Assembly (NCBI GenBank): GCA_009787485.1
Contig: WQWP01000001.1
Span: 1-61,486, forward strand
Length of the DNA: 61,486 bases
Source of the DNA: Lentimicrobiaceae bacterium
GTDB lineage: Bacteria > Bacteroidota > Bacteroidia > Bacteroidales > WCHB1-69
Direction of reading: 5' to 3'
Below the pieces are notes generated by a model. That model searched no databases and was not told where the DNA came from. It saw only the letters and a program-made list of their open reading frames with translations. Every line of letters begins with the position of its first letter. Position 1 is the stretch's first letter. A program made the position numbers and the translations under genes. This document shows positions 18,931 through 50,344 of the stretch, in pieces.

Positions 18931-21657
18931 TTAGAATAGCGTCAGCTGTTCCCATTCTTCGTCGTCCTTGTTCTTTTTAATGGGCTTTTCCTGTTCTTCA
19001 ATTACCTCTTGTATTTTTTCGATTACTTCGATTTTTTCGACTACCTCTATTTCTTCGATTACTTCCTCTATTTCTTCGATTACTTCTTCTATTTCTTCAA
19101 CTTCTTCATCTTGAATTACTTCTTCCTCCGGCTCCGGCAACGATTCTACGGGCGTAATAGCCACGATATTTTTAAAACTAATCCGTTTTCCACGCGCCTT
19201 AATGCTCATTATCTCTACAAAATCGGCGCAAGAAATAGTTGCTTTCTCAACTTCATCCGGTTTTTTCTCGTAATATTCTACTTCAATTTGCGGGAAATGG
19301 TCGTAGCTGATGAAAATGGGGCAGATCGTTTTATCATCTCCCAGAAATTCAACCTTTTTATCTGTAACTTCCGGAAAGAAGCGCTTCATGTAAAACTTGC
19401 CGTCCTCCTTGTTTTCGTAAACTGCAGTAATCGGTTTTTGGGCGTTATGTTTTTGAATGATAGAAAGATTATCTTCAAAGTGGGTGGAAAGGTCAAAACC
19501 GGTAACTCGGTAATTTCCGGTTTGGTAAATGGAGATAATTTTATCGTCTTCTTTAAATGCGCCTAATAAATCGCCGCGCTCATCGCTGTTTAAACGCATG
19601 ACAATAGGGTCATAAAAAATGTTAATGGCGCTTAAGGTAGATACGCCTTTGGAGATGATTTCGATTTTCCGCACCGGATTTCGCGATAAGATATTGCCTT
19701 GCGAAGCACGACCTTTTATGGCTAATGTGCTAAAGTCGAAGTCGAATTGTAGTTTTTTAAGTTTGGCTTTGGCTTTGAGAAATACGCGTACTTTTTCGGC
19801 TTCCCCGTTAGGATTTGAAGTAAAGTAAACCACTTTCGTTCCGAGAGTTCCTTTAGTTAAATCATATTCCCTATCTCTGGTAACGCCGCCCACCGAAAAT
19901 CTTTTCACCATGGCAAAACCGTTGTAGCCATCGGCATATACCATATTGTAAACCGTTCTGTCGTCGTTTCTTTTAAACACTTCTACATGAATGATGTCTT
20001 TTCCAAAGAACTGTTTTTCTGATACTTTGCTCACCATAAAAGTTCCGGTATCGCGAAAAACCACCACCTCATCAATGTCGGAGCAGTCGCACACGTATTC
20101 TACGTCTTCATCTTTTTTGAGCGCAGTTCCTACAAATCCTTCTTTTCTATTTACATACAACTTTTGATTTGCTACTGCCACCGTTGCCGCCACGATATTA
20201 TCAAAGTTTTTAATTTCGGTTTTGCGCTCTCTGCCTTCGCCATATTTTTTCTTTAGATTTTCGAAATAAGCAATCGCATATTCAATTAAATGATTCAAAT
20301 GATGAAGCACCTGATCCATTTTCTCTTCAATTTGTGCAATTTTTTCGTCCGCTTGTTTGATGTCGAATTTAGAAATTTTACGAACAGGTTTTTCACATAA
20401 TTTCAGCACGTCTTCTCGTGTAATTTCCCTTCTAAACATATCACGATACGGATCGAACGCTTTTTCGATGTTGTCAATTTGCTTTTCCCACGTAGCCGTA
20501 TCTTTTTCGAGTTCTTTATAAATTCTTTTTTCAAAGAAGATTTTTTCTAACGACCATTTGTGCCAATCTTCCTCTAATTCAGCCAATTCAATTTCAAGCT
20601 CACGTTTCAACAGCGCAACCGTATTTTCCGTATTAATACGCAAAATCTCTTTTACCGACAAAAACTGCGGTTTTCTATCATAAATTACGCAGGCATTGGG
20701 CGAGTACGACATCTCGCAATCTGTAAAAGCATACAGTGCATCAATGGTTTGGTCGGGCGAAACGCCGGGTTGAAGGTGTAGCAATATTTCTACCTTTTCT
20801 GCCGTATTGTCATCAATCTTCTTAATCTTCAATTTCCCTTTTTCAATGGCGGGCGCTATAGAATTGGTAATGAGGTTTGTAGTAGTTGTCCCATAAGGTA
20901 TTTCGTGGATGACCAATATTTTTTTATCCACGATAGTAATTTTCGCTCTGTTTCTCACTTTTCCGCCTCTCACGCCATCGTTATATTTTGAAATATCCAC
21001 TGTGCCGCCGGTAGGAAAATCGGGGTAAATTTCAAAATCTCTGTTTTCCAAAATGGCGATAGAAGCGTCAATCAGTTCTATAAAATTGTGTGGTAAGATT
21101 TTGGTAGCCAAGCCCACAGCAATTCCTTCCACGCCTTGCGCCAGCAGCAACGGAAATTTTACCGGCAGGGCAATAGGCTCTTTGTTGCGGCCGTCGTACG
21201 ACTGTTTCCATTGAGTGGTTTTAGAATTAAAAACTACTTCCAATGCAAATTTCGTCAACCTTGCTTCGATATATCTCGGCGCTGCCGCGTCATCTCCGGT
21301 GAAGATATTTCCCCAATTTCCCTGTGTATCAATGGTAATCTCTTTTTGCCCCAGTTGCACCATGGCATCGCCAATGGAAGTATCGCCATGCGGGTGGTAC
21401 TTCATGGTATTTCCGATAATATTCGCCGCCTTGTTGTAACGTCCGTCTTCTAACTCATACATAGAGTGAAGGATACGGCGTTGCACCGGTTTCAGCCCAT
21501 CGTAAATATCCGGCACTGCGCGGTCTAAAATTACATAAGAGGCATAATCCAAAAAATAGTTCTCAAACATGGATTGCACAAAGATGACTTTGTGGAGGTC
21601 GGAGGTTGGGGGGATGTCGTTGGTTAGCTGTTGGTCTTCGTTGATTTCTTCCGGCAT
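18931..21657 (-). CDS. parC: DNA topoisomerase IV subunit A (type IIA topoisomerase A subunit) with an acidic repeat tail
   Basis: YASYVILDRAVPDIYDGLKPVQRRILHSM, HPHGD, and the active-site context AAPRYIEARL. The Bacteroidota ParC-like N-terminus (FLDYASYVI) is distinct from the GyrA pattern. Confidence 0.9.
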   Translation of the reverse strand: MPEEINEDQQLTNDIPPTSDLHKVIFVQSMFENYFLDYASYVILDRAVPDIYDGLKPVQRRILHSMYELEDGRYNKAANIIGNTMKYHPHGDTSIGDAMVQLGQKEITIDTQGNWGNIFTGDDAAAPRYIEARLTKFALEVVFNSKTTQWKQSYDGRNKEPIALPVKFPLLLAQGVEGIAVGLATKILPHNFIELIDASIAILENRDFEIYPDFPTGGTVDISKYNDGVRGGKVRNRAKITIVDKKILVIHEIPYGTTTTNLITNSIAPAIEKGKLKIKKIDDNTAEKVEILLHLQPGVSPDQTIDALYAFTDCEMSYSPNACVIYDRKPQFLSVKEILRINTENTVALLKRELEIELAELEEDWHKWSLEKIFFEKRIYKELEKDTATWEKQIDNIEKAFDPYRDMFRREITREDVLKLCEKPVRKISKFDIKQADEKIAQIEEKMDQVLHHLNHLIEYAIAYFENLKKKYGEGRERKTEIKNFDNIVAATVAVANQKLYVNRKEGFVGTALKKDEDVEYVCDCSDIDEVVVFRDTGTFMVSKVSEKQFFGKDIIHVEVFKRNDDRTVYNMVYADGYNGFAMVKRFSVGGVTRDREYDLTKGTLGTKVVYFTSNPNGEAEKVRVFLKAKAKLKKLQFDFDFSTLAIKGRASQGNILSRNPVRKIEIISKGVSTLSAINIFYDPIVMRLNSDERGDLLGAFKEDDKIISIYQTGNYRVTGFDLSTHFEDNLSIIQKHNAQKPITAVYENKEDGKFYMKRFFPEVTDKKVEFLGDDKTICPIFISYDHFPQIEVEYYEKKPDEVEKATISCADFVEIMSIKARGKRISFKNIVAITPVESLPEPEEEVIQDEEVEEIEEVIEEIEEVIEEIEVVEKIEVIEKIQEVIEEQEKPIKKNKDDEEWEQLTLF
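18998..19128. repeat. 21-bp tandem repeat inside the 3' end of parC
   Basis: ttcgattacttcctctatttc-type units are reiterated. They encode IEEVIEE heptads (EEVEEIEEVIEEIEEVIEEIEVVEKIEVIEKIQEVIEE). Confidence 0.8.
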
Positions 21658-21703
21658 GTTGGGTTTTTCTTTGGGCTAGTTTACTTTTTAACAAAAGTGT
21701 GGG

Positions 21704-21711
21704 CAAAAATA
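21704..21711 (-). promoter_or_regulatory. Candidate -7 box for parC (TATTTTTG on the minus strand)
   Basis: caaaaata on the plus strand, about 47 nt upstream of the parC ATG at 21657. Confidence 0.35.
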
Positions 21712-21779
21712 TATGATTTCGTTTATCGTGGAATTGTGGGTTAATCTTTTTTTAGGGCAAAATCATTAATCTTTATTAC

Positions 21780-22404
21780 TTGGGCGTGCCCACTCGCTTT
21801 CCTCCGCGCGTTCGGCGGCGGCTCTGCCGTCGTCGTTTTATTCTATTCTCTACCGCCGATGCCATCACACGCTCGGGTCGCGGTGGCTACGGGGTTCGCT
21901 TCGCTCCCGTGCTCGCCTTCGGCTCGCACCGGCTTCGCCGCCCTCCGCCTCGCTCACGCAGGGGGAAATACAACGGTCTGTGCGTTGGGATAGGAAGGCT
22001 GAAAGCCTTGTAATCAATAGCATAGGGCAACGCCCTATGGAAATGAGCGTCATCTCGTTTGTCAGGCTGAAAGCCTGAAATCTAAATGATCGCGCCCTTT
22101 CAGGGCTTATCTTTGGACGCACGTCCTTTCGTAGGGCGTTGCCCTACGCTATTGATTACAAGGCTTTCAGCCTTCCTACCCCAACGCACAGACCGTTGTA
22201 CTTCCCCCTGCGTGAGCGAGGCGGAGGGCGGCGAAGCCGGTGCGAGCCGAAGGCGAGCACGGGAGCGAAGCGTACCCCGTAGCCACCGCGACCCGAGCGT
22301 GGGTAGGATGAGGCGGCAGGGGACAGAGCGACGGCGGCAGAGCCGCCGCTGAACATAATTGAGCCGCCGCCGAACGCGCGAAGGAAAGCGAGGGGCACGC
22401 CCAA
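21780..22404. repeat. 625-bp GC-rich foldback: about 260-bp inverted arms around a 91-bp hairpin-rich spacer
   Basis: Ends are ttgggcgtgccc... / ...gggcacgcccaa. The inner arms 21869..22039 and 22131..22300 are near-identical reverse complements. Local hairpins include aggctgaaagcct and tagggcaacgcccta. The ORF track shows mirror-image pseudo-proteins on the two strands. Confidence 0.9.
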
Positions 22405-22417
22405 ATAATAAAAAAAC

Positions 22418-22425
22418 TATTTTTG
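22418..22425 (+). promoter_or_regulatory. Candidate -7 box (TATTTTTG) for the M16 peptidase / folC operon
   Basis: Exact TAnnTTTG match 29 nt upstream of the ATG at 22454, immediately outside the foldback. Confidence 0.4.
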
Positions 22426-22453
22426 CACTTCAAAAATTAAACCCCAACCCAAC

Positions 22454-25357
22454 ATGAAAAAAACATTTCTCCTCCTTTTCGTAGCCTTCTTCGCTACTTT
22501 TTCCGTGCTTCATGCACAAAAACAGTACAAATATGAAACGGTTCCCAACGATCCGTTAAATGCTCGTATCTATAAATTAGACAACGACTTAACTGTTTAT
22601 CTAACCCAATACAAAGAAGCGCCGCGCATTCAAACTTACATCGCGGTGAAAGTGGGAAGCAAAAACGACCCCGCCGAAACCACCGGATTGGCGCACTATT
22701 TTGAACACATGATGTTTAAAGGCTCGCCAGATTTTGGCACCATAGATTGGGAAAGAGAGCAAGTGATGATCGCCCAAATTGAAGAATTATTCGAACAATA
22801 CCGGCTTTTGTCGGATGAAGCCGAGCGAGCCGCACTCTACAGAATTATTGACAGTATTTCGTTTGAAGCCAGCAAATTGACAATTCCCAATGAGTACGAT
22901 AAACTGATGAAATTTATTGGCTCGCAAGGTACCAATGCGGGAACGGCAAATGATTATACCGTTTATATGGAAAATATTCCTGCCAATCAATTGGAAAATT
23001 GGGCAATCATTCAGGCAAACCGCTTCGATCATCCGGTGTTGCGCCTGTTTCATACGGAGTTAGAGACAGTTTATGAAGAAAAAAACATGTCGCTTACTAA
23101 CGATAACCGCAAAGGGAGTGAAGCTATTCTTGCCGGATTGTTTCCCAATCATCCTTACGGACAGCAAACTACGCTGGGAGAAGCCGAACACTTGAAAAAT
23201 CCTTCCATGAAAAATATTCGTGAGTTTTACGAAAAATACTATGTGACTAATAATATGGCAATTGCCATGTCGGGAGATTTTGAGTTTGATGATGCTATCG
23301 CTATCATTGACAGGCATTTCAGCAAGTTAAGACGAGGCAACGTGCCGGAATTGATTTATACCGGAGAAACGCCTATTACCGAGCCTGTAGTGAAAGAAGT
23401 GGTGGGTTTGGAAGCTGAATTTCTCAATATGGCGTTTCGCGTGGATTTACCTGCAAACGATCCTAATATCTATACTTTGAATATGTTAGTTCGCATATTG
23501 TATAATGGAAAATCGGGATTGATTGATTTGAATTTGAATCAGAAACAATTGGTAATGAGCGCCGGAGCGTTCCCCTACGTGTTAACCGATAACTCCGCAT
23601 TATTTTTAACCGGAAAACCAAAAGAAGGGCAAACATTAGAAGAAGTTCGCGATTTATTATTGAAACAAATTGATTTATTGAAAAAAGGAGAATTTGATGA
23701 TGATTTATTAACCGCCGTAATTAACAATATGCGTTTAACTGAAATGCGCCAGTTGGAAAGCAATGCCTCGCGCGCAAGAATGTTTACAAGCGCCTTTTGG
23801 AATAATATTCCCTGGGAAGTTGCCTCTCAATCCATCGCCAATTATTCCAAAATCACAAAAAAAGATATTGTTAATTTTGCCAATAAGCACTTCCACAATA
23901 ACTATGTAATTGTGTTTAAGCGACAAGGCACGCCTGAGGAAGTAACTAAGGTGAACAAGCCTGCCATTACGCCCATTCATATTAATAGAGATGAAGAGTC
24001 AAACTTTATGAAGAAAATAAAAGAGGCTAAAACAGAACCCTTAGTAGCTGTTTTTATTGATTTTCAAAAAGATATGACAATCATTCCCAATAAAAACTTC
24101 AACATTTATTATATTAAAAATGTAGAAAATGCTACATTTAATTTGCAGTTTCGTTATAAAACAGGCGAGTTGAATGATTTACGTTTGCCTTTTGCCACCG
24201 ACTATATTGATTATTTAGGAACTTCAACGATGAGCGCCGACAAAATTCAGGAGGAGTTTTATAAATTGGCATGTACCATGAATTTGTCGTGCAGCGACGA
24301 ATATACAACGCTCACTATTACCGGTTTAAGCGACAATTTTGCGAAAGCGCTACAACTTACCTCATCGGTGATGAAAGATGCGCAACCTAATGCCGAAGCG
24401 TTGCAAAATCTGATTTCCGATGCGTTAAAAGCGAGGAGAGATGCGAAAAGCAATCAAAATGCCGTGCAAAACGCACTTCGCAGCTATGGCGAGTTTGGGC
24501 CTGACTTGGCGCAATATATCCTTTCCGAAGAGCAACTTCAAAAGCTTACGCCCAACGAATTAATTAGCATCATAAAAGATTTATTGAACATAAAACCGGA
24601 AGTTTATTTTTATGGCAACCTCTCTACTGATGAATTTAATAAACTTTTATTGAAAAATTACCAAATACCGAAAAAATTCACCGAACCGGCGCCAGCTCAA
24701 GTATTTAACCGCCTTCCAGTAACAGAAGATAAAGTTTATTTTGTACATTATGATGCCAAACAAGCCAGATTGTTTACTTATTCCGACGGTACACCATTTA
24801 ATGTGCAATATTTACCCAATATTAATATGTATAACCAATATTTTGGGGGAAGTATGAATGCCATTGTATTTCAGGAAATGCGCGAAAAACGCGGCTTGGC
24901 TTATACTGCGCGTTCGGCTTATATTTCTGCCAATGAGCTAAATAAGATAAATTACAATTTCTCTTTCATTGCCACTCAAAACGACAAAGTAACGGATGCT
25001 TTTGAGGCTTTTAATGAGCTGTTTAATGATATGCCGCAATCGGAAGCTGCTTTTACATTGGCAAAAGAGGGCGCTTTACAAGCTATTGAAACCAATAGAA
25101 TTCAGAAAACCGCTATTTTCAACGCGTGGCGCAACGCACAAAGAATGGGCATTGACTACGACATTAACAAAGTGCTATATGAATCCTACAAAACCTTTAC
25201 ATTGGATGATGTCGTAAAGTTTAATCATAACCATGTGAAAGACAGAAAGAAAGTATATATGATTGCCGCCAAAGAAGGAGATATGAATTTTGAAGAGCTG
25301 CAGAAAAAATTTGGTCCGGTACAAAAATTAACATTAGAAAATATCTTTGGATATTAA
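22454..25357 (+). CDS. M16 (pitrilysin/insulinase) family zinc metallopeptidase, secreted
   Basis: Signal peptide, and an inverted zinc motif HYFEHMMFKG (HxxEH). The 967-aa length fits a two-module M16 protein. Confidence 0.88.
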   Translation: MKKTFLLLFVAFFATFSVLHAQKQYKYETVPNDPLNARIYKLDNDLTVYLTQYKEAPRIQTYIAVKVGSKNDPAETTGLAHYFEHMMFKGSPDFGTIDWEREQVMIAQIEELFEQYRLLSDEAERAALYRIIDSISFEASKLTIPNEYDKLMKFIGSQGTNAGTANDYTVYMENIPANQLENWAIIQANRFDHPVLRLFHTELETVYEEKNMSLTNDNRKGSEAILAGLFPNHPYGQQTTLGEAEHLKNPSMKNIREFYEKYYVTNNMAIAMSGDFEFDDAIAIIDRHFSKLRRGNVPELIYTGETPITEPVVKEVVGLEAEFLNMAFRVDLPANDPNIYTLNMLVRILYNGKSGLIDLNLNQKQLVMSAGAFPYVLTDNSALFLTGKPKEGQTLEEVRDLLLKQIDLLKKGEFDDDLLTAVINNMRLTEMRQLESNASRARMFTSAFWNNIPWEVASQSIANYSKITKKDIVNFANKHFHNNYVIVFKRQGTPEEVTKVNKPAITPIHINRDEESNFMKKIKEAKTEPLVAVFIDFQKDMTIIPNKNFNIYYIKNVENATFNLQFRYKTGELNDLRLPFATDYIDYLGTSTMSADKIQEEFYKLACTMNLSCSDEYTTLTITGLSDNFAKALQLTSSVMKDAQPNAEALQNLISDALKARRDAKSNQNAVQNALRSYGEFGPDLAQYILSEEQLQKLTPNELISIIKDLLNIKPEVYFYGNLSTDEFNKLLLKNYQIPKKFTEPAPAQVFNRLPVTEDKVYFVHYDAKQARLFTYSDGTPFNVQYLPNINMYNQYFGGSMNAIVFQEMREKRGLAYTARSAYISANELNKINYNFSFIATQNDKVTDAFEAFNELFNDMPQSEAAFTLAKEGALQAIETNRIQKTAIFNAWRNAQRMGIDYDINKVLYESYKTFTLDDVVKFNHNHVKDRKKVYMIAAKEGDMNFEELQKKFGPVQKLTLENIFGY

Positions 25358-26643
25358 TGACTTATCCTGAAATTATAGCGCATATTTTCCAATCCTTCCC
25401 TATGTACCACCGCATTGGAAGTGCGGCATACAAAGAAGGGTTGGAAAATATTGAGCAGCTTGCCGAAATGGCAGGTCATCCCGAAAAGAAAATCAAAACC
25501 ATTCACATTGCCGGAACCAACGGAAAAGGCTCTGTAGCGCACTTATTGGCTTCCTATTTTCAAGAGTTGGGCTGGAAAACGGGCTTGTTTACCTCACCGC
25601 ATCTGATTGATTTTCGCGAACGCATAAAAATCAACGGCAAAGAGATTTCCGAAAAACAAGTAGTAGATTTTTTTGACAAATATCAAGAAAAAATGGCAAA
25701 AATTACGCCTTCTTTTTTCGAAATGACGACAATTTTAGCCTTCGATACATTTGCCAGCGAAAAAACCGATATTGCCATTATTGAAACCGGTTTAGGCGGA
25801 AGATTAGATGCCACCAACATCCTCTCCCCTATCCTATCGGTAATTACCAATATCTCGTTGGAACACACCCAAATGCTGGGCAATACGCTGCCTGAAATTG
25901 CTGTTGAAAAAGCCGGCATTATTAAAAAAAACACTCCCGTAGTGATTGGCGAATATCATCCTGAAACATTTCCGATTTTTGAAGAAATCGCAAAAAACAA
26001 AAACGCCCCACTTTTTTTAGCGGAAGAATATATTGGGGATTTGCAACTTAGCGGCACTTACCAACGAAAAAATATCGGAACGTTTTTAAAATGCGTGCAA
26101 GTTCTTAAAGAAGAAGGAAGAAAGAAGAAGGAAGAAATATCCCCTTCAAATTTTGAAGGGGTGCCCGAAGGGCGGGGTAGTTTATATAAAAACATAATTC
26201 ACACCGCCATCCAAAACCTTTTCAAAAACACCGGTTTTGCAGGCCGCTGGCAAATCATCTCCCAAACCCCGCTTACCATTTGCGACGTGGCGCACAACCC
26301 CGCCGGAATAGCCTTAGTGATGGCGCAATTGCAGGAGTTTCCACACCGCAACTTACACATTATCATGGGTTTTGTTAATGATAAAGATATTGATGAAATT
26401 GTACCTCTGTTGCCCAAAAATGCAACCTATTACGCCTGTCAGGCTCAAATAGAGCGTGCTATGCCTGCGGAAAAACTGTTTCAAAAATTATCTTTGGCTA
26501 ACCTTAATGTTCTTAAAATCTCTAATGTCTTTAATGCCTATAATGAAGCTAAACAAAATGCCGATAAAAACGACCTCATTTTCATCGGCGGAAGTTTTTT
26601 TGTGGTGGGGGAATTTTTGAAAAAAAATGACACAAGTGGGTAA
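25357..26643 (+). CDS. folC: Folylpolyglutamate synthase / dihydrofolate synthase, carrying an in-frame repeat insertion
   Basis: P-loop HIAGTNGKGS, Mur-ligase-like motifs (TSPHL, GLGGRLDATN, DVAHNP). The start overlaps the upstream stop (TAATG). Confidence 0.9.
   Translation: MTYPEIIAHIFQSFPMYHRIGSAAYKEGLENIEQLAEMAGHPEKKIKTIHIAGTNGKGSVAHLLASYFQELGWKTGLFTSPHLIDFRERIKINGKEISEKQVVDFFDKYQEKMAKITPSFFEMTTILAFDTFASEKTDIAIIETGLGGRLDATNILSPILSVITNISLEHTQMLGNTLPEIAVEKAGIIKKNTPVVIGEYHPETFPIFEEIAKNKNAPLFLAEEYIGDLQLSGTYQRKNIGTFLKCVQVLKEEGRKKKEEISPSNFEGVPEGRGSLYKNIIHTAIQNLFKNTGFAGRWQIISQTPLTICDVAHNPAGIALVMAQLQEFPHRNLHIIMGFVNDKDIDEIVPLLPKNATYYACQAQIERAMPAEKLFQKLSLANLNVLKISNVFNAYNEAKQNADKNDLIFIGGSFFVVGEFLKKNDTSG
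26108..26190 (+). repeat. GA-rich tract plus double-hairpin element (copy A), inside the folC reading frame
   Basis: aagaagaaggaagaaagaagaaggaagaaa followed by tatccccttcaaattttgaaggggtgcccgaagggcggggtagtttatataaa. It translates in frame as EEGRKKKEEISPSNFEGVPEGRGSLYKN. Confidence 0.9.
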
Positions 26644-28826: not shown

Positions 28827-31800
28827 TCAAGAGATCCTCTCCTGCACCCCCTTAAACACCACAAAAAACACCGGCACAAACAACAACCCCAAAACCGTCG
28901 AAATCAAAAACCCGCCGGCAGCAGCGATGCCAATGGAGATATTTCCGGCAGCGCCGGCGCCGCTTGCCAAACACAACGGCAACATGCCAAAGATAAACGC
29001 AAAGGAGGTCATTAAGATGGGGCGGATACGTTCTTTTGCCGCTAAAACAGCCGCTTCCGGCAAACTCATGCCCTGCTTTCGCTTCAGCAAGCCGAACTCG
29101 ACAATTAAGATGGCGTTTTTGGCTAACAAGCCCAGCAACATGATCATGGCTACCTGAACGTAGATGTTGGCAGGCAAGCCCACGAGGTTTATGGTTACAT
29201 ACACGCCGAAAATGCCGAGCAACAGCGCCAACATCACAGATATAGGAACAATGTAGCTTTCGTATAATGCTGCAAGAATGAAAAATACCAAAATAAAACT
29301 CAAAGCAAAAACAAAAAGTTGCTGTCCGCCCGATTCAATTTCATCGCGGGTCATTCCCGAATATTCATATTTAAAACCTACCGGCAATTCCTGCGCCACA
29401 ATCGCCGCCGCATCCATCGCCTGGCTCGTGCTGTAGCCATCTGCCGGCGAAACGTTGATGGTCATACAAGGAAACATGTTGTAACGTTTAATCAGGTCGG
29501 AGCCAAATACGGGCTTTAAGGAGACTAATGAGTTGAGCGGCACCATTTCCCCTTGCTTGTTTCTCACATACATAATGTTCAAATCCATTACGCTTTGGCG
29601 CGAAACTGCATCGGCTTGCACCATAACGCGGTAAAACCGAGTGAACTTATTAAAGTCGCCGGCTACCCCGCCGCCAAAGTAAAACTGCATGGTATTGAAC
29701 ACATCCGCAGGCGAAACACCCATCATTTTGGCTTTATTCACATCCAATTCCAGCTCATATTGCGGCACATTTACCGTGAAGCTGCAAAATGTTTTGGAAA
29801 TCTCCGGACGTTCATTCATTTTACTCATAAACTCCTGTCCCACATTATACATATTGATAATATCGCCCGATCCGGTTTGATCCAAGAACTGCATTTCAAT
29901 ATCGGAAGAACTGCCGTAGCCGCTAATGGTAGGCGGCACAAAAAAGAGCACGGTGGCATCTTTGGTTACGTTAATTGCCGTTAGCACATACATCTGCATT
30001 ACAATGTCTCTTAGAGAGATAGCTTCTCTTTGCGACCAATTTACCAATCTCACAAATCCCAATCCATACGAGCCGCCTACCGCACCCGACAACATTCCAA
30101 CACCGCCTACGGTAACCACCAACTCTACTTCCGGTATCGTTTGCAAAAGCGTATCTAACTGTGCCAACACATTTTCCGTCCTATCCAAAGAAGTTCCTTC
30201 CGGCATGGTAATATCGAAAAATATTACGCCCTGGTCTTCTGTAGGGACGAAAGCGGTTGGGGTTGTTTTTAACAAAAAGAAGGAAAAGCCTGCAATGATA
30301 AGGAAAGCGATGAACACAAGCGTTTTGCGATTCATAAATTTTTGCAACAACCTCCCATATTTTTGCACCATCGCATTAAACCCAACATTAAACCCATCCC
30401 CCATCCTCTTCAACAAATTCCTTTTCTCCTTTTCTCCCTTCTCCTTTTCTCCATGTTTTACCTTTATCATAATCGCGCACAACGCCGGACTCAACGTCAG
30501 CGCATTAATCGCCGAAATAGACACAGCAACGGCTAACGTTACGCAAAACTGTTGGTAAAATGCGCCGGTCGCGCCGGTCATCATCACTGCCGGAAGGAAG
30601 GTGGCGATAAACACTAAGGTAATGGAAATCACTGCTCCGGTAATTTCGCCCATAGCAGATTTTGTCGCCTCTAAGGGCGAAATATTTGGGTCGGCTTCGA
30701 GTTTGGCATATACGGCTTCGACGACGACGATGGCGTCATCCACCACAATTCCAATAGAAAGCACTAAGGCGAACAGCGTAAGCATGTTAATGCTAAATCC
30801 GAAGATTTGCAAAAACATAAATGTGCCTACTAACGCCACCATTACCGAAATGGCAGGAATAATAGTAGCCCGTATGTTTTGCAGGAAAATAAACACCACC
30901 AGAAACACCAAAATAAACGCCTCAACCAATGTTTTTTTTACTTCGTGAATAGAAGCGTCTAAGAAATCCTGGCTATCTACTACTAAATCGTAGTGTACAC
31001 CGGCAGGCAGATTGGCTTCGAGGTCTTTCAAAACAGCTTTAATTGCGGTGGAAATATATTGAGAATTAGATCCTTTCATTTGATACACCGCCATAACTAC
31101 GGAAGGCTCGCCGTTAGTTCGCCCAATAATGTCATAGTTAAATGCGCCGAACTCGATCGTTGCCACATCTTTCAAATATAAAATCTCTCCGGTGTTGCTT
31201 ACGCGAAGTACAATGTTTTCGTATTGAGACACTTCTGTTAAACGTCCTTTATATTTAATGGTAATTTGAAACGCTTCTCTGCTGTTTGCGCCAATTCTTC
31301 CGGGGGCAACCTCCAAACTTTGTTCTTTAATGGCTTGCACCACATCGGTGGGCTGCAGGTTATATACTGCTAATTTTTCCGGATGCAGCCACACCCGCAT
31401 GGCGTAGTCGCGGGCGCCGAACACTGCCACATCTCCCACGCCGGCAATACGTTGCAGCTCCGGAAGGATGTAAATACGGGCATAATTTTGAATAAACGTT
31501 TCATCATACGCAGGATTGCTGCTTGCCAGCGACAACACCAGCACCATGCTGTTTTGTTTTTTGGAAGTTCTTACCCCCATCTGGTTTACCACTGCCGGCA
31601 AGCTGCTGATGGCAGACGATACGCGGTTTTGCACATTTACCGCCGCCATATCGGGGTCGGTATCCAAGGTAAAAAACACTTGGATGGTAGCGCTGCCGTC
31701 GTTGTTGGCAGAAGAAACCATGTAGGTCATGCCCTCCACGCCGTTTATTTTTTCTTCCAACGGGGCAACTACGGAGTTGAGCACCACATCGGCGTTGGCG

Positions 31801-32649: not shown

Positions 32650-32704
32650 ATATAAACTACCCCGTCTCGCTTCGCGAGACACCCCTTCAAAATTTGAAGG
32701 GGAT
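32650..32704 (-). repeat. Double-hairpin element, copy B (reverse orientation)
   Basis: catataaactaccccgtctcgcttcgcgagacaccccttcaaaatttgaaggggat. Its reverse complement matches copies A and C. Confidence 0.9.
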
Positions 32705-32718
32705 TTTTCATCAGCTCG

Positions 32719-33894: not shown

Positions 33895-34830
33895 ATGAAA
33901 AAAATCCTCGGAATCGGTAACGCCTTAGTAGATGTGCTCGTTGAAATAAAAGACGAGTCCTTGTTCAAAAAATTCGGTTTAAAAAAAGGAGGCATGGAAA
34001 TGATTAGCGCCGACTTAAAAAACGAAATTCATAGAGAGATTCATGGGTTGCAACAAACCGTTGCCTCCGGAGGCTCCACCTCAAACACCATTTACGGATT
34101 GGCGCAATTGGGCGCTCCGGTGGGTTACATTGGAAAAATTGGAGAAGATGATATGGGGTACTTTTTCAAAAAAGATATGGAGGAAGCAGGTGTAACAACG
34201 CATCTTATTCATTCTAAAATAGATACAGGAATTGCAACCACCTTCATTACCAAAGGTGGAGAGCGTACTTTTGCCACTTACCTCGGCGCTGCGGCAACCC
34301 AAACCCCTGAAGATCTGCACGAACGCATATTCTCTTTGTACGACCTCATCCATGTGGAAGGCTATCTGATTTTTAACAGAGATTTGATTTTAAACATCTG
34401 CAAGCTGGCAAAAAAATGCGGATTGCAAATTTCAATGGACATGGCAAGCTACAACTTGGTAGAAGCAATGCACCCTTTGGTAGAGGAACTGCTTCGCGAC
34501 TACGTGGACATTATCTTTGCCAACGAAGAAGAAGCCTTCGCCTTTACCGGAAAGAAAGAGCACGAAGCTTTAGAAGTTTTATCCGGCTACTGTCCGGTTG
34601 CCGTAGTAAAGTTAGGCGCAGAAGGCTCCTTAGCGCGCGTACACGGAGAAACCACAGTAATTCCCGCCATCAAAGCGCACCCTAAAGACACCACCGGCGC
34701 CGGCGACATCTACGCCGCCGGTTTCCTCTACGGCCTCATCAACAACTACCCCATCGCCAACGCCGGCGCCTTAGCCTCAAAACTAAGCGCAAAGTGCATA
34801 GAGGCGATTGGGGCAAGGATTGGGGGGTAA
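33895..34830 (+). CDS. PfkB-family sugar/nucleoside kinase (adenosine kinase-like)
   Basis: N-terminal GIGNALVDVL, GGSTSNT, and a C-terminal DTTGAGDIYAAGFLYG signature. Confidence 0.85.
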   Translation: MKKILGIGNALVDVLVEIKDESLFKKFGLKKGGMEMISADLKNEIHREIHGLQQTVASGGSTSNTIYGLAQLGAPVGYIGKIGEDDMGYFFKKDMEEAGVTTHLIHSKIDTGIATTFITKGGERTFATYLGAAATQTPEDLHERIFSLYDLIHVEGYLIFNRDLILNICKLAKKCGLQISMDMASYNLVEAMHPLVEELLRDYVDIIFANEEEAFAFTGKKEHEALEVLSGYCPVAVVKLGAEGSLARVHGETTVIPAIKAHPKDTTGAGDIYAAGFLYGLINNYPIANAGALASKLSAKCIEAIGARIGG

Positions 34831-34835
34831 ACTTA

Positions 34836-35018
34836 AGGGAGAAAGGAGAAAGGAGAAGGGAGAAACGAGAAGGAAGAAAAGAGAAGGGAGAAGGGAGAAG
34901 GGAGAAACGAGAAGGAAGAAAAGAGAAGGGAGAAGGGAGAAGGGAGAAACGAGAAGGAAGAAAAGAGAAGGGAGAAGGAAGACGGAAGAAAAGAGAAGGG
35001 AGAAGGAAGACGGAAGAA
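34836..35018. repeat. Purine-rich (GA) tandem array, 42-bp period, about 3.5 units plus shorter sub-repeats
   Basis: gggagaaacgag recurs at 34858, 34900 and 34942. The plus strand is almost entirely G/A. It begins just after the pfkB-family stop and runs directly into hairpin copy C. Confidence 0.9.
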
Positions 35019-35077
35019 TATCCCCTTCAAATTTTGAAGGGGTGTCTCGCAAAGCGAGACGGGGTAGTTTATATAAA
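35019..35077 (+). repeat. Double-hairpin element, copy C
   Basis: atatccccttcaaattttgaaggggtgtctcgcaaagcgagacggggtagtttatataaa. It abuts the stop codon (35080..35082) of the DUF559 gene. Confidence 0.9.
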
Positions 35078-35499: not shown

Positions 35500-35546
35500 G
35501 AGTTGATTTTTTTAAAAATTCTACTTTCTTTTTAGTTTTTAATTTT

Positions 35547-35596
35547 CATATAAACTACCCCGCCCTGCGGGCACCCCTTCAAAATTTGAAGGGGAT
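35547..35596 (-). repeat. Double-hairpin element, copy D (reverse orientation)
   Basis: catataaactaccccgccctgcgggcaccccttcaaaatttgaaggggat, 48 nt upstream of the DUF559 ATG. Confidence 0.9.
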
Positions 35597-35604
35597 GTTT
35601 GGGT

Positions 35605-37294: not shown

Positions 37295-38806
37295 ATGTTT
37301 TTCAAAAAAATATCGTTATATTCATTATTTATGAATTTTAACCTAATGAATACCCAACCTCACCATCCAAAATTCTCAATTCTCAATTCTCAATTCTCAA
37401 TTCTCATTCTCCTTTTCTCCCTTCTCCTTGCTCCTTTTACCTCTGTTTACGCCCAAAAAAAACAAAAAAAAGAAAAATCCACTAAACAAACCGAGCTTGT
37501 AATCAACGAGCGCAAGCAATCTATTGTTTTTGCCGATGGGCTTCGCGAGTTTTATTCGCAAAATTATTCTGCAGCAAAAAAATCGTTTCAGGAAGTATTG
37601 AAACAAAATCCTAAAAATCATGCGGCTCATTATCTGCTGCATAAAATAGCGGTGGAGCAACAAGATTACCTGTTGGCTTCCCATTATTTAAAGGAAGCGA
37701 TAAAATTGGATAAAAAAAATGAATGGTATCAGATTGATTTAGCGGGAGTTCACGAAAAATTGGGCGATTATGTAAGCGCTGCAAAAATTTGGGAAGAAAT
37801 ATGTAAAGTGAAATATAATAATGAATATTATTTAATATCGTTGGCAAACAGCTATTTACATTTAGGAAGATTGCACGATGTCATCAAAGTATATGATCGA
37901 ATAGAGAATCTCTTGGGAAAAAATGACGGTCTCACCGAAACCAAAAAAAATATATGGCTCTATTTAAACGATGTAAAAAACGCCGTGCGGGAATATGAAA
38001 AATTGATGGCGCTTTATCCTCATGAAATTGGATATTACATTATTGCCGGCGAAATTTACTTGTCGAACAACATGCCGGACAAAGCGTTTCCTTTCTTTCA
38101 GCAAGCCATGCAGATAGATGCAGAAGATCCTGATTTGAACTTGGCATTGGCAAACTATTACGAGCGCGTTAAAAAACCGGAGGAAAGTTTTGAGGCATTA
38201 TTAAAGGCTATTTCGAGCAAGGAGTTAGAGATTGAAGAAAAAATTCCTACACTGAAAACCTATTTAGCCAACGCTTTTCGTTTGCAAGTTCCCGACATAT
38301 TGGAAAAAACTGAAAAATTAGCCCAAGCGGTTACCATAGCGCATCCTTTCGATTTGGAAGGTTGGGCATCTTTAGCCAAACTCAGCTCGCTAAAAAAACA
38401 ATATCAGGAAGCTAAGTTGCTCTACGAAAAATGTATAGCGTTAGATGAAGCACAATTTTCCATTTGGGAAGATTATTTTTATGTGTTGGCAAAATTGGAA
38501 GATTATCAAACCATTATCGCCAATGAGAAATTAGTAGAAGAATATTTTCCTACCAATGCCACCATTCAATACAGTTTGGCGCTGGCTTTATACAAAGAAA
38601 AACAGTTCGAGAGCGCTTTAAAGGCTGCCAAACGCGCATTAGCATTCACTTTTGAAAATAGTTTCGTAGCAGATTTGAATCTATTACTTGGCGACATCGC
38701 GATTGAATTGGAGCAAAAAGAGGAAGCGGTAAAATATTGGAAAACAGCGCAACGCCGCGGGATTAACACCCCTGAGCTGCAAAACAAAATAGAAACCAAT
38801 CAATAA
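37295..38806 (+). CDS. Secreted TPR-repeat protein
   Basis: The ATG lies 2 nt after the rSAM stop. There is a hydrophobic N-terminus ending VYAQ and multiple 34-aa TPR-like units (A..Y..A...F..AL..NP...A.Y.L). Confidence 0.8.
   Translation: MFFKKISLYSLFMNFNLMNTQPHHPKFSILNSQFSILILLFSLLLAPFTSVYAQKKQKKEKSTKQTELVINERKQSIVFADGLREFYSQNYSAAKKSFQEVLKQNPKNHAAHYLLHKIAVEQQDYLLASHYLKEAIKLDKKNEWYQIDLAGVHEKLGDYVSAAKIWEEICKVKYNNEYYLISLANSYLHLGRLHDVIKVYDRIENLLGKNDGLTETKKNIWLYLNDVKNAVREYEKLMALYPHEIGYYIIAGEIYLSNNMPDKAFPFFQQAMQIDAEDPDLNLALANYYERVKKPEESFEALLKAISSKELEIEEKIPTLKTYLANAFRLQVPDILEKTEKLAQAVTIAHPFDLEGWASLAKLSSLKKQYQEAKLLYEKCIALDEAQFSIWEDYFYVLAKLEDYQTIIANEKLVEEYFPTNATIQYSLALALYKEKQFESALKAAKRALAFTFENSFVADLNLLLGDIAIELEQKEEAVKYWKTAQRRGINTPELQNKIETNQ
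37370..37437. repeat. Heptamer array (attctca, about 5 units) fused to a CT-rich tract, inside the 5' end of the TPR CDS
   Basis: aattctcaattctcaattctcaattctcattctccttttctcccttctccttgctcctttt. It encodes KFSILNSQFSILILLFSLLLAPF. Confidence 0.85.
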
Positions 38807-50284: not shown

Positions 50285-50344
50285 TCTCGCAAAGGCGCAG
50301 AGGCGCAAAGAAAAAAAACTTTGCGCCTCTGCGCCTTTGCGAGA
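50285..50344 (+). terminator. Perfect 26-bp-stem hairpin after glyA (repeat-derived, putative terminator)
   Basis: tctcgcaaaggcgcagaggcgcaaag-aaaaaaaa-ctttgcgcctctgcgcctttgcgaga. There is no downstream T-tract. Confidence 0.55.

What the first reader, a model, noticed from the sequence alone, without database searches (positions are those of the whole stretch)
21780..22404. 625-bp GC-rich foldback element sitting exactly between two divergent promoters
In AT-rich surroundings, a sharply GC-rich block has about 260-bp inverted arms, with ends ttgggcgtgccc / gggcacgcccaa. The inner about 170 nt of the arms (21869..22039 against 22131..22300) differ at only a handful of positions by my manual alignment, the outer about 45 nt also match, and the middle of the arms has diverged. 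The 91-bp spacer and the arms are themselves made of small hairpins (aggctgaaagcct, tagggcaacgcccta, gccctttcagggc, ggacgcacgtcc). Candidate -7 boxes for parC (21704..21711) and for the M16/folC operon (22418..22425) lie just outside each end. The element could act as an insulator, a cruciform, a bidirectional structured RNA, or a foldback-type MITE. I saw no obvious target-site duplication.
Basis: seen in the sequence. Interest (0 to 1): 0.65.

Follow-up and report, generated by a model that had tools for sequence, protein, structure and literature searches.

The report
Nested palindromic repeat cluster, REPIN-like core
The 625-bp GC-rich palindrome is real, but it is a mosaic of selfish repeats: a 184-bp gene-less relic of the two ends of a small tyrosine (IS200-like) transposase gene, sandwiched between two inverted copies of a lineage-specific GC-rich repeat, with no sign of a conserved regulatory role.

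Summary
Window 21780-22404 is a GC-rich island whose arms pair over about 270 nt; the single-strand DNA fold is -349 kcal/mol (z = -48).

It is composite rather than one element.

- **Core (21993-22176).** This is a palindromic doublet of a three-hairpin module: H1 GGCTGAAAGCC, then TAGC plus H2 GGGCAACGCCC, then H3 xxCTGAAAGxx. The module occurs in more than 120 species-level genome contigs, mostly Bacteroidales, with some PVC and other phyla. The hairpin stems covary.
- **Origin of the core.** In eight independent loci, the same modules in inverted orientation directly flank a 150-aa Y1 (HuH) transposase gene. That gene carries the Y---Q--HH signature of TnpAY1 subclass 1.2. The core is therefore a gene-less left end plus right end, i.e. 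REPIN/MITE-like.
- **Outer arms.** Each arm is an END motif, a variable hairpin and a 100-nt module. The arms are copies of a termite-gut lineage repeat that elsewhere occurs singly.

No second full-length copy, target-site duplication, Rfam match or conservation in relatives was found. RNA data were not available.

Best reading: selfish or neutral mosaic DNA parked between two divergent promoters, with its inner arms homogenised locally. The link between subclass 1.2 and a REPIN-like family appears undescribed in the searched literature.

The parts
21772..21805 (+). Left END module (TTTATTAC + TTGGGCGTGCCCACTCGCTTTCCTCC). This is the outer terminus of the left arm and abuts AT-rich promoter DNA.
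   Evidence: Inverted-repeat pair I4/I2. The same END (TTGGGCGTGCCCCTCGC) ends single arm copies in L121, L122 and L124. Depth is 44-81 against 12 for the flank.
21806..21841 (+). Left variable hairpin slot (GCGCGTTCGGCGGCGGCTCTGCCGTCGTCG).
   Evidence: Depth 150-240. Other arm copies carry different hairpins in this slot.
21842..21865 (+). Left unique linker, diverged from its counterpart in the right arm.
   Evidence: Depth 6-20, close to single copy. Unitigs diverge at 21843 and 21862. About 60% identity to the right arm.
21866..21964 (+). Left copy of the 100-nt GC-rich arm module (CACGCTCGGGTCGCGGTGGCTACGGGG...CTCGCTCACGCAGGGG).
   Evidence: 93-99% identical across 6 copies, with 1-nt indels, so it is non-coding. 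It occurs singly in L121-L124. Depth 500-1440. It has no structure of its own, z = +0.4.
21965..21992 (+). Left inner linker between the arm module and the core.
   Evidence: Shared only by the two arms of this locus. The unitig 21937-21991 has depth 42, about twice what two single-copy arms would give.
21993..22098 (+). Left half of the core. H1 at 21996-22008, TAGC at 22018-22021, H2 at 22021-22039, and an H3-position hairpin at 22063-22077 (cAGGCTGAAAGCCTg).
   Evidence: Covariance model R1: 74.8 bits, E = 1e-13, full length.
22072..22176 (-). Right half of the core. H1' at 22161-22173, GCTA at 22148-22151, H2' at 22130-22148, H3' at 22094-22106, and an extra hairpin GGACGCACGTCC at 22115-22126.
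   Evidence: Covariance model R1: 81.4 bits, E = 4e-15, full length. The doublet spans 184 nt against a family median of about 182 nt.
22177..22204 (-). Right inner linker.
   Evidence: Differs at 2 positions from the left linker.
22205..22303 (-). Right copy of the 100-nt arm module.
22304..22375 (-). Right diverged linker plus the variable hairpin slot, which carries a 21-nt internal duplication (GAGCCGCCGCTGAAC / GAGCCGCCGCCGAAC).
   Evidence: Direct repeat D1; alignment.
22376..22412 (-). Right END module (…GAAGGAAAGCGAGGGGCACGCCCAA + ATAATAAA).
   Evidence: Inverted-repeat pairs I2/I4. The unitig 22298-22582 joins it to the M16 gene.
21704..21711 (-). Candidate Bacteroidota -7 box TATTTTTG for the topoisomerase IV subunit A gene (ORF 18931-21657, - strand). 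It lies outside the element.
22418..22425 (+). Candidate -7 box TATTTTTG for the M16 peptidase / folC-type operon (ORF 22454-25357, + strand). It lies outside the element.

Best explanation
The region is a nested mosaic of repeated DNA, not one purpose-built element.

**(1) Core, 21993-22176.** This is a non-autonomous, REPIN/MITE-like doublet: the left end and the inverted right end of a small Y1 (HuH-tyrosine, IS200-like) transposase gene, with the gene itself missing. Each end is a string of three DNA hairpins:
- H1, GGCTGAAAGCC.
- H2, GGGCAACGCCC, preceded by a conserved TAGC.
- H3, xxCTGNAAGxx.

By analogy with IS200/IS605 TnpA and with RAYT-REP, such hairpins form on single-stranded DNA and are what the Y1 enzyme binds and cuts. 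A Y1 protein encoded elsewhere in the genome would therefore move or copy the doublet in trans. That last step is inferred, not shown.

**(2) Outer arms.** On each side lies one copy, in inverted orientation, of a lineage-specific GC-rich repeat of about 215 nt. It consists of the END motif TTGGGCGTGCCCCTCGC, a slot holding a variable hairpin, and a 100-nt unstructured module. Elsewhere in termite-gut Bacteroidales this repeat occurs as single copies.

**(3) Origin of the large palindrome (inferred).** The very high identity of the inner 170 nt of the arms, against a diverged middle, is best explained by local arm-to-arm conversion or template switching around the palindromic core. It does not look like transposition of a 625-bp unit.

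**(4) Consequence (inferred).** The cluster sits between two divergent promoters because that site tolerates insertions. Nothing indicates that it is a conserved regulatory device.
For: **Core belongs to the family.**
- Both halves match the three-hairpin covariance model over its full length (81.4 and 74.8 bits).
- The doublet spans 184 nt against a family median of about 182 nt over 61 doublets.

**The family is real and structured.**
- On 80 sequences, 94.5% of pair cells form standard pairs.
- There are 142 double-sided changes against 35 in shuffles, reached by 0 of 500 shuffles. Sliding the partners collapses the pairing.
- The TAGC is nearly invariant.

**Link to the Y1 gene, found from the module side.**
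- In L012, L025, L037 and L038 a 150-151-aa PF01797 gene lies between the modules. In L116 a module doublet follows the gene and the locus ends just upstream of it, and L058 holds a Y1 gene fragment beside a doublet.
- Five convergent pairs are 451-456 nt apart, which is the gene length.

**Link to the Y1 gene, found from the protein side.** Homologues were picked by protein only. P0157, P0187 and P0238 have model hits abutting the gene on both sides in inverted orientation (46-72 bits).

**Protein signature.** HuH, WQ and Y---Q--HH are invariant. This matches TnpAY1 subclass 1.2 of PMC6006769.

**The gene behaves as single-copy.** P0217 lies in the same context in the places shown among the 24 contigs read.

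**Arms are separate repeats.**
- The 100-nt module is found singly in L121-L124.
- The depth profile is stepwise: flank 12, END 44-81, hairpin slot 150-240, unique linker 6-20, 100-nt module 500-1440.
- blastn of the element against the 120 family loci matches only 21995-22176.

**Not conserved.** It is absent upstream of M16 in eight relatives with 80-87% identical protein.

**Precedent.** REP dimers nested in longer palindromes are described in PMC3733652.
Against: - No Y1 gene and no second copy of any module lie in the 61-kb window. Activity in this genome, or even presence of the enzyme, is unshown. The copy may be an immobile relic.
- The enzyme-DNA relationship rests on gene-flank association and analogy. 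No binding or cleavage data exist.
- The Y1 proteins fail the NCBIfam RAYT model (19-22 bits against a cut-off of 80) and are borderline for the IS200 model (46-57 bits against 55).
- The only survey of subclass 1.2 lists it as having no REPs.
- The origin of the arm repeat is unknown. So is the reason it recurs next to H1-H2 modules in either orientation (L123, L124).
- The conversion / template-switch origin of the large palindrome is inference only.
- 22 other doublets have at most a short palindromic extension, so the window's structure is atypical for the family.
- Metagenome depth mixes many genomes and cannot give copy number in this genome.
- A regulatory side-effect on the two promoters was not tested.
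Confidence: 0.72

Rival explanations
1. The whole 625-bp palindrome is one mobile foldback MITE. Its terminal inverted repeats would be TTGGGCGTGCCC / GGGCACGCCCAA, and it would be moved as a unit by an unknown transposase.
For: - The ends are symmetric and abut AT-rich DNA.
- The END motif also terminates other arm copies.
- All sub-modules are repeated in the metagenome.
Against: - No second full-length copy was found.
- The arm-specific linkers 21842-21865 have single-copy depth.
- Arm copies elsewhere are single, with different neighbours and different inner linkers.
- There is no target-site duplication.
- The middle of the arms is only about 60% alike, while the modules shared with other copies are 95-99% alike.
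Confidence: 0.1
2. The element is a functional cis-acting device. It would be a cruciform or supercoil-sensitive insulator between the divergent topoisomerase IV and M16 / folC-type promoters, or the template of a structured RNA.
For: - It lies exactly between two candidate promoters.
- Its hairpin potential is extreme.
- A topoisomerase gene sits next to a supercoil-sensitive structure, which is suggestive only.
Against: - It is absent at the M16 upstream region of eight relatives, whose spacers there are mostly about 30-140 nt, up to 331 nt, or hold another kind of Y1 gene (L144).
- The parC-M16 adjacency itself is not conserved.
- There is no Rfam match.
- Both promoters point away from the element.
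- The modules are generic repeats found next to unrelated genes.
- No RNA data were obtainable.
Confidence: 0.08
3. The palindrome is an assembly artefact. Two different loci, each with one arm plus a REP module, would have been joined through the shared inverted repeat.
For: - One-armed versions exist (L123, L124).
- The inner 170 nt are about 98% identical between the arms and are repeated in the metagenome.
- No long read was available.
- The parC-M16 adjacency is not seen in relatives.
Against: - Independent Logan unitigs from different samples join each flank to its arm.
- Others tile 21937 to 22169 at 98% identity or better, at depths of 14-42, close to the flank depth.
- X3/X4 contigs span 22006-22174.
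- The contig does not fold back on itself, because the two flanks are different unique genes.
Confidence: 0.07

Closest known systems
REPIN-RAYT systems (REP doublets forming hairpins with a single-copy REP-associated tyrosine transposase; Pseudomonas, E. coli; PMC3116915, PMC3337134)
   Same: - Two inverted hairpin-bearing repeats with a short spacer.
- Many gene-less doublets per genome, and the same repeats in inverted orientation flanking a roughly 150-aa Y1 HuH gene.
- That gene looks single-copy and fixed in place.
- A conserved short tag (TAG-C) at the 5' foot of the main hairpin, comparable with GTAG.
   Different: - The associated protein is not a class-2 RAYT. It scores 19-22 bits against an 80-bit cut-off on NF047646 and is IS200-like, subclass 1.2.
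- Each end carries three hairpins (about 105 nt) rather than one REP.
- The hairpin loops are nearly identical across phyla, whereas REPs are usually lineage-specific.
- The tag is ATAG/TAGC, not GTAG.
IS200/IS605 insertion sequences and their gene-less derivatives (MITE-like 'PATE' elements; named from memory, not tested here)
   Same: - A Y1 HuH transposase with DNA hairpins near the ends.
- No target-site duplication.
- Derivatives that keep the ends and lose the gene.
- The nearest solved structure, weakly, is ISDra2 TnpA (2XM3, E = 0.08).
   Different: - IS200/IS605 ends are asymmetric, with different left and right ends and no inverted repeat. Here the two ends are inverted copies of one module.
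- The gene appears single-copy at a fixed site.
- PMC6006769 states that subclass 1.2 'does not share IS properties'.
BIMEs (bacterial interspersed mosaic elements of E. coli) and REP clusters / REP dimers nested in longer palindromes (PMC3733652)
   Same: - A mosaic of a REP-type palindrome with other conserved, non-REP motifs.
- The modules recombine in different orders and orientations at different loci.
- REP dimers inside longer palindromes are described for A. variabilis GTAG-15 and H. neapolitanus CGTC-1.
   Different: - The flanking palindrome here is far longer (about 215 nt per arm against about 20-25 nt).
- Its arms are themselves a separate repeat family that occurs singly.
- No IHF, gyrase or Pol I binding data exist for these sequences.
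TnpAY1 subclass 1.2 (Quentin et al. 2018, PMC6006769)
   Same: The Y1 genes flanked by the modules are 150-151 aa and carry (D/N)H(I/V)H, WQ and Y---Q--HH. They are low-copy and found in Bacteroidota.
   Different: [quoted passage not shown] Here eight loci show inverted three-hairpin ends, and there is a large family of gene-less doublets.

Membership tests
Three-hairpin inverted-end family of subclass-1.2 Y1 genes (defined here, model R1) | H1 hairpin N-GGCTGAAAGCC-N' with a covarying closing pair | tested here: met
   Present at 21996-22008 and 22161-22173. Closing pair across the family: GC 40, AU 34, CG 4, UA 2.
Three-hairpin inverted-end family of subclass-1.2 Y1 genes (defined here, model R1) | Conserved TAGC at the 5' foot of H2 (GGGCAACGCCC, with 3-4 further covarying pairs) | tested here: met
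   TAGC at 22018-22021 and H2 at 22021-22039, with the mirror at 22130-22151. In the family, A is present in 127, G in 120 and C in 126 of 135 copies; 116 of 135 have 4 extra pairs.
Three-hairpin inverted-end family of subclass-1.2 Y1 genes (defined here, model R1) | H3 hairpin with loop CTGNAAG about 26 nt after H2 | tested here: met
   Present at 22063-22077 (variant stem AGGC/GCCT, also seen in L016, L085, L086) and at 22094-22106. Both halves match the model over its full length at 75 and 81 bits.
Three-hairpin inverted-end family of subclass-1.2 Y1 genes (defined here, model R1) | Two halves convergent, with a total span of about 180 nt and no gene between them | tested here: met
   184 nt here. 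The 61 family doublets have a median of about 182 nt.
Three-hairpin inverted-end family of subclass-1.2 Y1 genes (defined here, model R1) | Cognate Y1 gene and further copies in the same genome | not testable with these tools
   Only 61 kb of this genome is available. It holds no Y1 gene and no further copy.
REPIN-RAYT system (Bertels & Rainey) | The associated protein is a RAYT (class-2 TnpA_REP) | tested here: not met
   NF047646 REP_Tyr_transpos scores 22.4 and 19.5 bits against a cut-off of 80. The signature is that of subclass 1.2.
REPIN-RAYT system (Bertels & Rainey) | Inverted REP doublet able to form one long hairpin, with the same REPs flanking a single-copy Y1 gene | tested here: met
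   Doublets and gene-flanking pairs. P0217 lies in one fixed context in the places shown among the 24 contigs read; this was checked for one species only.
IS200/IS605 insertion sequence or its MITE | Y1 HuH transposase matching the curated IS200 model | tested here: inconclusive
   NF033573 scores 56.9 bits (passes the cut-off of 55) for the L012 protein and 46.1 bits (fails) for the L037 protein. Pfam PF01797 is clearly met at E = 1e-22.
IS200/IS605 insertion sequence or its MITE | Asymmetric left and right ends without terminal inverted repeats | tested here: not met
   The left and right flanks of the gene are inverted copies of the same module.
Foldback MITE (the whole of 21780-22404) | Several full-length copies at different sites | tested here: not met
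   None in the window, in relatives or in the JGI scan. The four metagenome hits are single arms. The arm linkers have single-copy depth.
Foldback MITE (the whole of 21780-22404) | Target-site duplication flanking the terminal inverted repeats | tested here: not met
   Flanks ...TCTTTATTAC and ATAATAAAAA... share no direct repeat of 4 nt or more. They are partly inverted, not direct.
Any Rfam RNA family | Match to a curated covariance model | tested here: not met
   The only matches are a mir-192 hit at 23 bits (cut-off 54) and an Acido-Lenti-1 hit at 17 bits (cut-off 37); both are chance hairpin matches.

The most novel reading that the evidence does not exclude
The core may reveal an undescribed REPIN-like repeat family present in several phyla (Bacteroidota, with Verrucomicrobiota, Planctomycetota and Chlamydiota). 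Its cognate enzyme would be TnpAY1 subclass 1.2. The one survey that defined that group lists it as having no REPs and no IS properties. If so, subclass 1.2 would be a second, independent domestication, or a REPtron-like lifestyle arising inside the IS200 clade itself. The window would then show how such a doublet can seed a very long near-perfect palindrome by arm-to-arm homogenisation of neighbouring repeats.
Probability: 0.4. Interest if true: 0.55.

Novelty: new variant of a known kind. Interest (0 to 1): 0.42.

Why it matters
**For this locus.** A striking 625-bp palindrome turns out to be an accumulation of selfish repeats in a tolerant intergenic site. It should not be annotated as a regulatory element or an RNA gene.

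**More generally.** The core ties a large, easily recognisable family of three-hairpin palindromes to the small Y1 genes of subclass 1.2.
- The family was seen in more than 120 species-representative genomes, including human-gut Prevotella, Bacteroides and Alistipes.
- The role and DNA partners of subclass 1.2 genes were left open when the subclass was defined.
- This gives a concrete, testable substrate for those enzymes: single-stranded H2 with its TAGC foot, plus H1 and H3.
- It also gives an annotation rule for a common class of intergenic repeats in Bacteroidales, and a possible marker for strain typing.

**For assembly.** Such long palindromes and repeat mosaics break short-read assemblies and sit at synteny breakpoints. 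The gene upstream of M16 differs in all eight relatives examined. This is useful to know when interpreting MAGs.

Tried and rejected
- **Rfam, permissive thresholds, 21000-23200.** Only chance hairpin hits.
- **Literature search for the hairpin sequences.** Only primer coincidences. Searches for REPIN / RAYT / subclass 1.2 in Bacteroidales found no description of this family.
- **Spurious ORF as a probe.** I searched the protein database with an 88-aa ORF from the arm to fish out other copies. Nothing was found.
- **RNA runs for this stretch.** None were listed, so transcription could not be tested.
- **Viral contigs.** The arm pattern gave 0 hits and the core pattern 2, so the elements are not phage-borne.
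- **Empty site through M16 orthologues.**
  - Eight relatives were fetched.
  - None has the element, but none has parC upstream either.
  - They show absence, not a true empty site.
- **L144 as an orthologous parent of the core.**
  - L144 has a Y1_Tnp gene exactly upstream of its M16 gene.
  - It is not the parent: model R1 does not hit L144.
  - Its ends are a different inverted repeat with CTTAGTAGC.
  - It is a second Y1 family in the same type of site.
- **The 100-nt arm module as a hairpin REP.** Rejected. It has no structure (z = +0.4), and 1-nt indels rule out coding.
- **Metagenome depth as copy number in this genome.** Rejected. The modules occur in many genomes of the same community, and the 61-kb window holds only this copy.
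- **Whether palindromic flanks are usual for the family.** They are not; among 22 other doublets the median z is 0.9, against z = 65 for the window.
Full report
**1.

Window 21780-22404 is a GC-rich block (0.56-0.71) in DNA of 0.35-0.45 GC. The repeat finder reports these complementary arms:
- 21842-22042 / 22127-22327 (201 nt, 92%).
- 21790-21824 / 22361-22395 (94%).
- 21772-21791 / 22393-22412 (95%). The symmetry therefore reaches 8 nt beyond the stated ends.

Aligning the left arm with the reverse complement of the right arm shows three zones:
- An inner stretch of about 168 nt (21866-22039 against 22128-22303) with 4 differences.
- A diverged middle of about 60% identity, with a 21-nt internal duplication in the right arm.
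- An outer stretch of about 45 nt with 2 differences.

As single-stranded DNA the region folds at -349 kcal/mol against -128 +/- 4.6 for shuffles (z = -47.7).

The flanking ORFs are a DNA topoisomerase IV/gyrase subunit A gene (18931-21657, - strand) and an M16 peptidase gene (22454-25357, + strand) followed by a Mur-ligase (folC-type) gene. TATTTTTG boxes lie at 21704-21711 (-) and 22418-22425 (+). TAnnTTTG occurs 1.4 times per kb in the window, so this is weak support.

**2. It is not an obvious assembly artefact.**

The source is a termite-gut metagenome. Logan unitigs from independent runs join each unique flank to its arm: 21621-21838 and 22298-22582 in X1; 21692-21851 and 22390-22667 in X3. 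At 98% identity or better, unitigs tile 21937-21991, 21964-22021, 21995-22039, 22020-22078, 22061-22148 and 22133-22169. Their depths are 14-42, against about 12 for the flank. No long read spans the whole structure, so a chimeric join through the repeat cannot be fully excluded.

**3. The element is composite.**

Word depth is stepwise:

| Segment | Depth |
|---|---|
| Flank | 12 |
| END motif | 44-81 |
| Hairpin slot 21806-21841 | 150-240 |
| Linker 21842-21865 | 6-20 (unique) |
| 100-nt module 21866-21964 | 500-1440 |
| 45-nt piece 22128-22174 | about 3500-5000 |

Many different sequences adjoin these pieces at 21995, 22130 and 22174. The parts are therefore separate repeats with different abundances in the community.

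**4. The core is a member of a widespread three-hairpin family.**

Most are Bacteroidales (Prevotella, Bacteroides, Alistipes, Tannerella, Paludibacter and many termite-gut MAGs). Others are Verrucomicrobiota, Planctomycetota, Chlamydiota and a few further bins. Some Firmicutes bins carry Prevotella-type copies and may be contaminated; that is my inference.
- blastn of the 625-bp element against these loci matches only 21995-22176.
- The usual unit is an inverted pair of modules of about 180-200 nt in total, with AT-rich DNA directly outside.
- Aligning 80 half-elements gives: H1 N-GGCTGAAAGCC-N'; a linker ending in TAGC; H2 with GGGCAACGCCC plus 3-4 further pairs; about 26 variable nt; then H3 with loop CTGNAAG on a variable stem.
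- The stems covary. 94.5% of cells are paired, and there are 142 double-sided changes against 35 +/- 7 in shuffles (0 of 500 shuffles reach this). Pairing collapses when the partners are slid. H1 and H2 cores are invariant by ascertainment, so the informative pairs are the closing and extension pairs and all of H3.
- A covariance model of the half-element (R1) hits the window twice at full length: 22072-22176 (-) at 81.4 bits and 21993-22098 (+) at 74.8 bits. It hits nowhere else in the window or in about 130 kb from relatives.
- With an nhmmer profile, the 120 loci hold 226 half-elements. Of these, 61 pairs form gene-less convergent doublets with a median span of about 182 nt. The window's doublet is 184 nt.

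**5. The modules are the ends of a small Y1 transposase gene.**

- *From the module side.* Clustering all ORFs of the 120 loci singled out a protein of about 150 aa.
  - It is PF01797 Y1_Tnp, E = 1e-22.
  - In L012, L025, L037 and L038 it lies between modules. In L116 a module doublet follows the gene and the locus ends just upstream of it, and L058 holds a Y1 gene fragment beside a doublet.
  - The layout is H1-H2-H3 - ATG...stop - H3'-H2'-H1'.
  - Five convergent pairs are 451-456 nt apart, which is the gene length.
- *From the protein side.* I picked homologues by protein alone and fetched their loci.
  - P0157, P0187 and P0238 have R1 hits abutting the gene on both sides in inverted orientation (46-72 bits).
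  - P0217 has only weak hits.
  - P0217 lies in the same gene context in the places shown among the 24 contigs read, and is listed in 126 blocks. It therefore behaves as a fixed single-copy gene, not a jumping IS.
- *Protein class.*
  - The proteins share invariant HuH, WQ and Y---Q--HH. That is the signature, size and taxonomic range of TnpAY1 subclass 1.2 in PMC6006769.
  - That paper lists the subclass as low-copy, 'REP: no', and not sharing IS properties.
  - They fail the NCBIfam RAYT model (19-22 bits against 80) and straddle the IS200 cut-off (46-57 bits against 55).
  - The nearest solved structure is ISDra2 TnpA, and only weakly (E = 0.08).
- *Conclusion.* The window's core is a gene-less left end plus right end. 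It works like a REPIN or a MITE of a Y1 element. Recognition of the hairpins on single-stranded DNA by the Y1 enzyme is inferred from IS608/ISDra2 TnpA and E. coli RAYT-REP; it is not shown here. No Y1 gene lies in the window.

**6. The outer arms are another repeat.**

- An exact 24-mer of the arm found four termite-metagenome contigs.
- In all four, the 100-nt module occurs once rather than as an inverted pair, and with different neighbours.
- Aligning six copies gives a consistent unit. It runs: END (TTGGGCGTGCCCCTCGC), a short TATCCTCC-like stretch, a slot holding a different hairpin in each copy, and then the 100-nt module.
- The 100-nt module is 93-99% identical among copies. Its 1-nt indels exclude coding.
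- The module has no structure of its own (z = +0.4) and no Rfam match.
- L123 and L124 carry an H1-H2 module 30-55 nt from the inner end of the arm, in either orientation. In L123 the H1 loop is flipped. The two kinds of repeat therefore recur together but shuffle.
- The inner linker (21965-21992) is shared only by the two arms of this locus. Its unitig depth of 42 is about twice that expected for two single-copy arms.

**7. How the large palindrome arose (inference).**

The identity pattern is 95-99% where the sequence belongs to a repeat family or lies next to the centre, and about 60% in the unique middle. This does not fit one recent inverted duplication, and it does not fit transposition of a 625-bp unit. 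It fits two arm copies in inverted orientation around a palindromic doublet. The inner parts would have been homogenised by intrastrand conversion or template switching.

Among 22 other doublets with enough flank, most have no palindromic extension (median z 0.9). Four have a short one, and the window is an extreme outlier (z = 65). REP dimers nested in longer palindromes have precedent in PMC3733652.

**8. Function.**

The element is absent upstream of the orthologous M16 gene in eight relatives (80-87% protein identity). The spacer there is mostly about 30-140 nt and at most 331 nt. The upstream gene differs in every case. This is therefore a synteny breakpoint, not a conserved regulatory region.

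In one relative (L144) the same position holds a different Y1_Tnp gene with its own inverted ends of about 65 nt. A gene-less copy of those ends lies in L121. That supports the view that this type of site collects Y1-associated elements.

Both promoters point away from the element. No RNA data could be obtained. I conclude that it is selfish or neutral DNA in a permissive site. A side-effect on supercoiling or on promoter coupling is possible but untested.

**9. Comparison and novelty.**

- It works like a REPIN/RAYT system: an inverted hairpin doublet, with the same repeats around a single-copy Y1 gene.
- It is not a member in the strict sense, because the protein is not a class-2 RAYT.
- It is not a classical IS200/IS605 element either, because the ends are inverted copies and the gene appears fixed.
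- The mosaic as a whole resembles BIMEs and REP clusters.
- I found no description of the three-hairpin family, or of its link to subclass 1.2, in the searchable literature. That is not proof that none exists.

I therefore rate it a new variant of a known kind, of moderate interest. The original puzzle is largely explained, and the by-product is a testable DNA substrate for an uncharacterised Y1 subclass.

Noticed in passing
window 26100-26195 (inside the folC-type ORF 25357-26643): The folC-type gene carries an in-frame insert made of a GAAGAAGG-type run plus a copy of the 58-nt palindromic repeat. It reads as ...EEGRKKKEEISPSNFEGVPEGRGSLYKN.... All four relatives aligned have a hypervariable insert at the same column. 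L125 has almost the same peptide, SPSKFEGVPEGRGSLYKN.
   Followed up: partly
window 26135-26192, 32650-32707, 35017-35074, 35543-35600: A 58-nt repeat family: CCCCTTCAAAATTTGAAGGGG hairpin, a swappable inner hairpin (CCCGAAGGG or TCTCGCAAAGCGAGA), then CGGGGTAGTTTATAT. It occurs in both orientations. A similar GGTAGTTTATAT tail lies next to the arm repeat in L124 at about 900-930.
   Followed up: no
window 34797-35034; also 30416-30454 and 37373-37437: A long purine-rich tandem array of 7/14-nt units (GAGAAGG / GAGAAAC), with inverse-complement copies about 2.4-4.5 kb away.
   Followed up: no
window 50285-50344: A perfect 26 + 26 nt hairpin, TCTCGCAAAGGCGCAGAGGCGCAAAG / CTTTGCGCCTCTGCGCCTTTGCGAGA, with an 8-nt loop.
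   Followed up: no
window 18994-19128 (3' end of the topoisomerase IV subunit A ORF): A periodic 9-nt repeat encodes an acidic, repetitive C-terminal tail (...EEVEEIEEVIEEIEEVIEEIEVVEKIEVIEKIQEVIEE...).
   Followed up: no
L144 4600-5300 (relative, directly upstream of its M16 gene); L121 2611-2772: A second kind of Y1_Tnp gene (147 aa, also with Y---Q--HH) sits exactly where the window has its palindrome. It is flanked by a different inverted repeat of about 65 nt containing CTTAGTAGC. L121 holds a gene-less doublet of those ends. Model R1 does not match them.
   Followed up: partly
L125-L133, L144, L145 (M16 loci of relatives): M16 and the folC-type gene stay together, but the gene upstream of M16 differs in every relative: IgGFc-binding, Big_5, Lyase_1, KilA-N, Y1_Tnp, glycosyltransferase. 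This is a recurrent synteny breakpoint.
   Followed up: partly
L121 2330-2360 and 2820-2930: Four copies of another GC-rich short repeat, GTCATTCCGAGCGAAGCGAGGAATCCC. One of them occupies the variable slot of an arm repeat.
   Followed up: no
L051 520-720: A doublet of the three-hairpin family lies between an HNH-motif ORF and an ORF that I read by eye as Cas2-like. This is not verified.
   Followed up: no
L026, L042, L056, L064 (Oscillospiraceae bin); L011, L044 (Wujia bin); L063: Firmicutes-labelled MAG bins carry many doublets that are nearly identical to the Prevotella type. This may indicate Bacteroidales contigs mis-binned into those MAGs.
   Followed up: no
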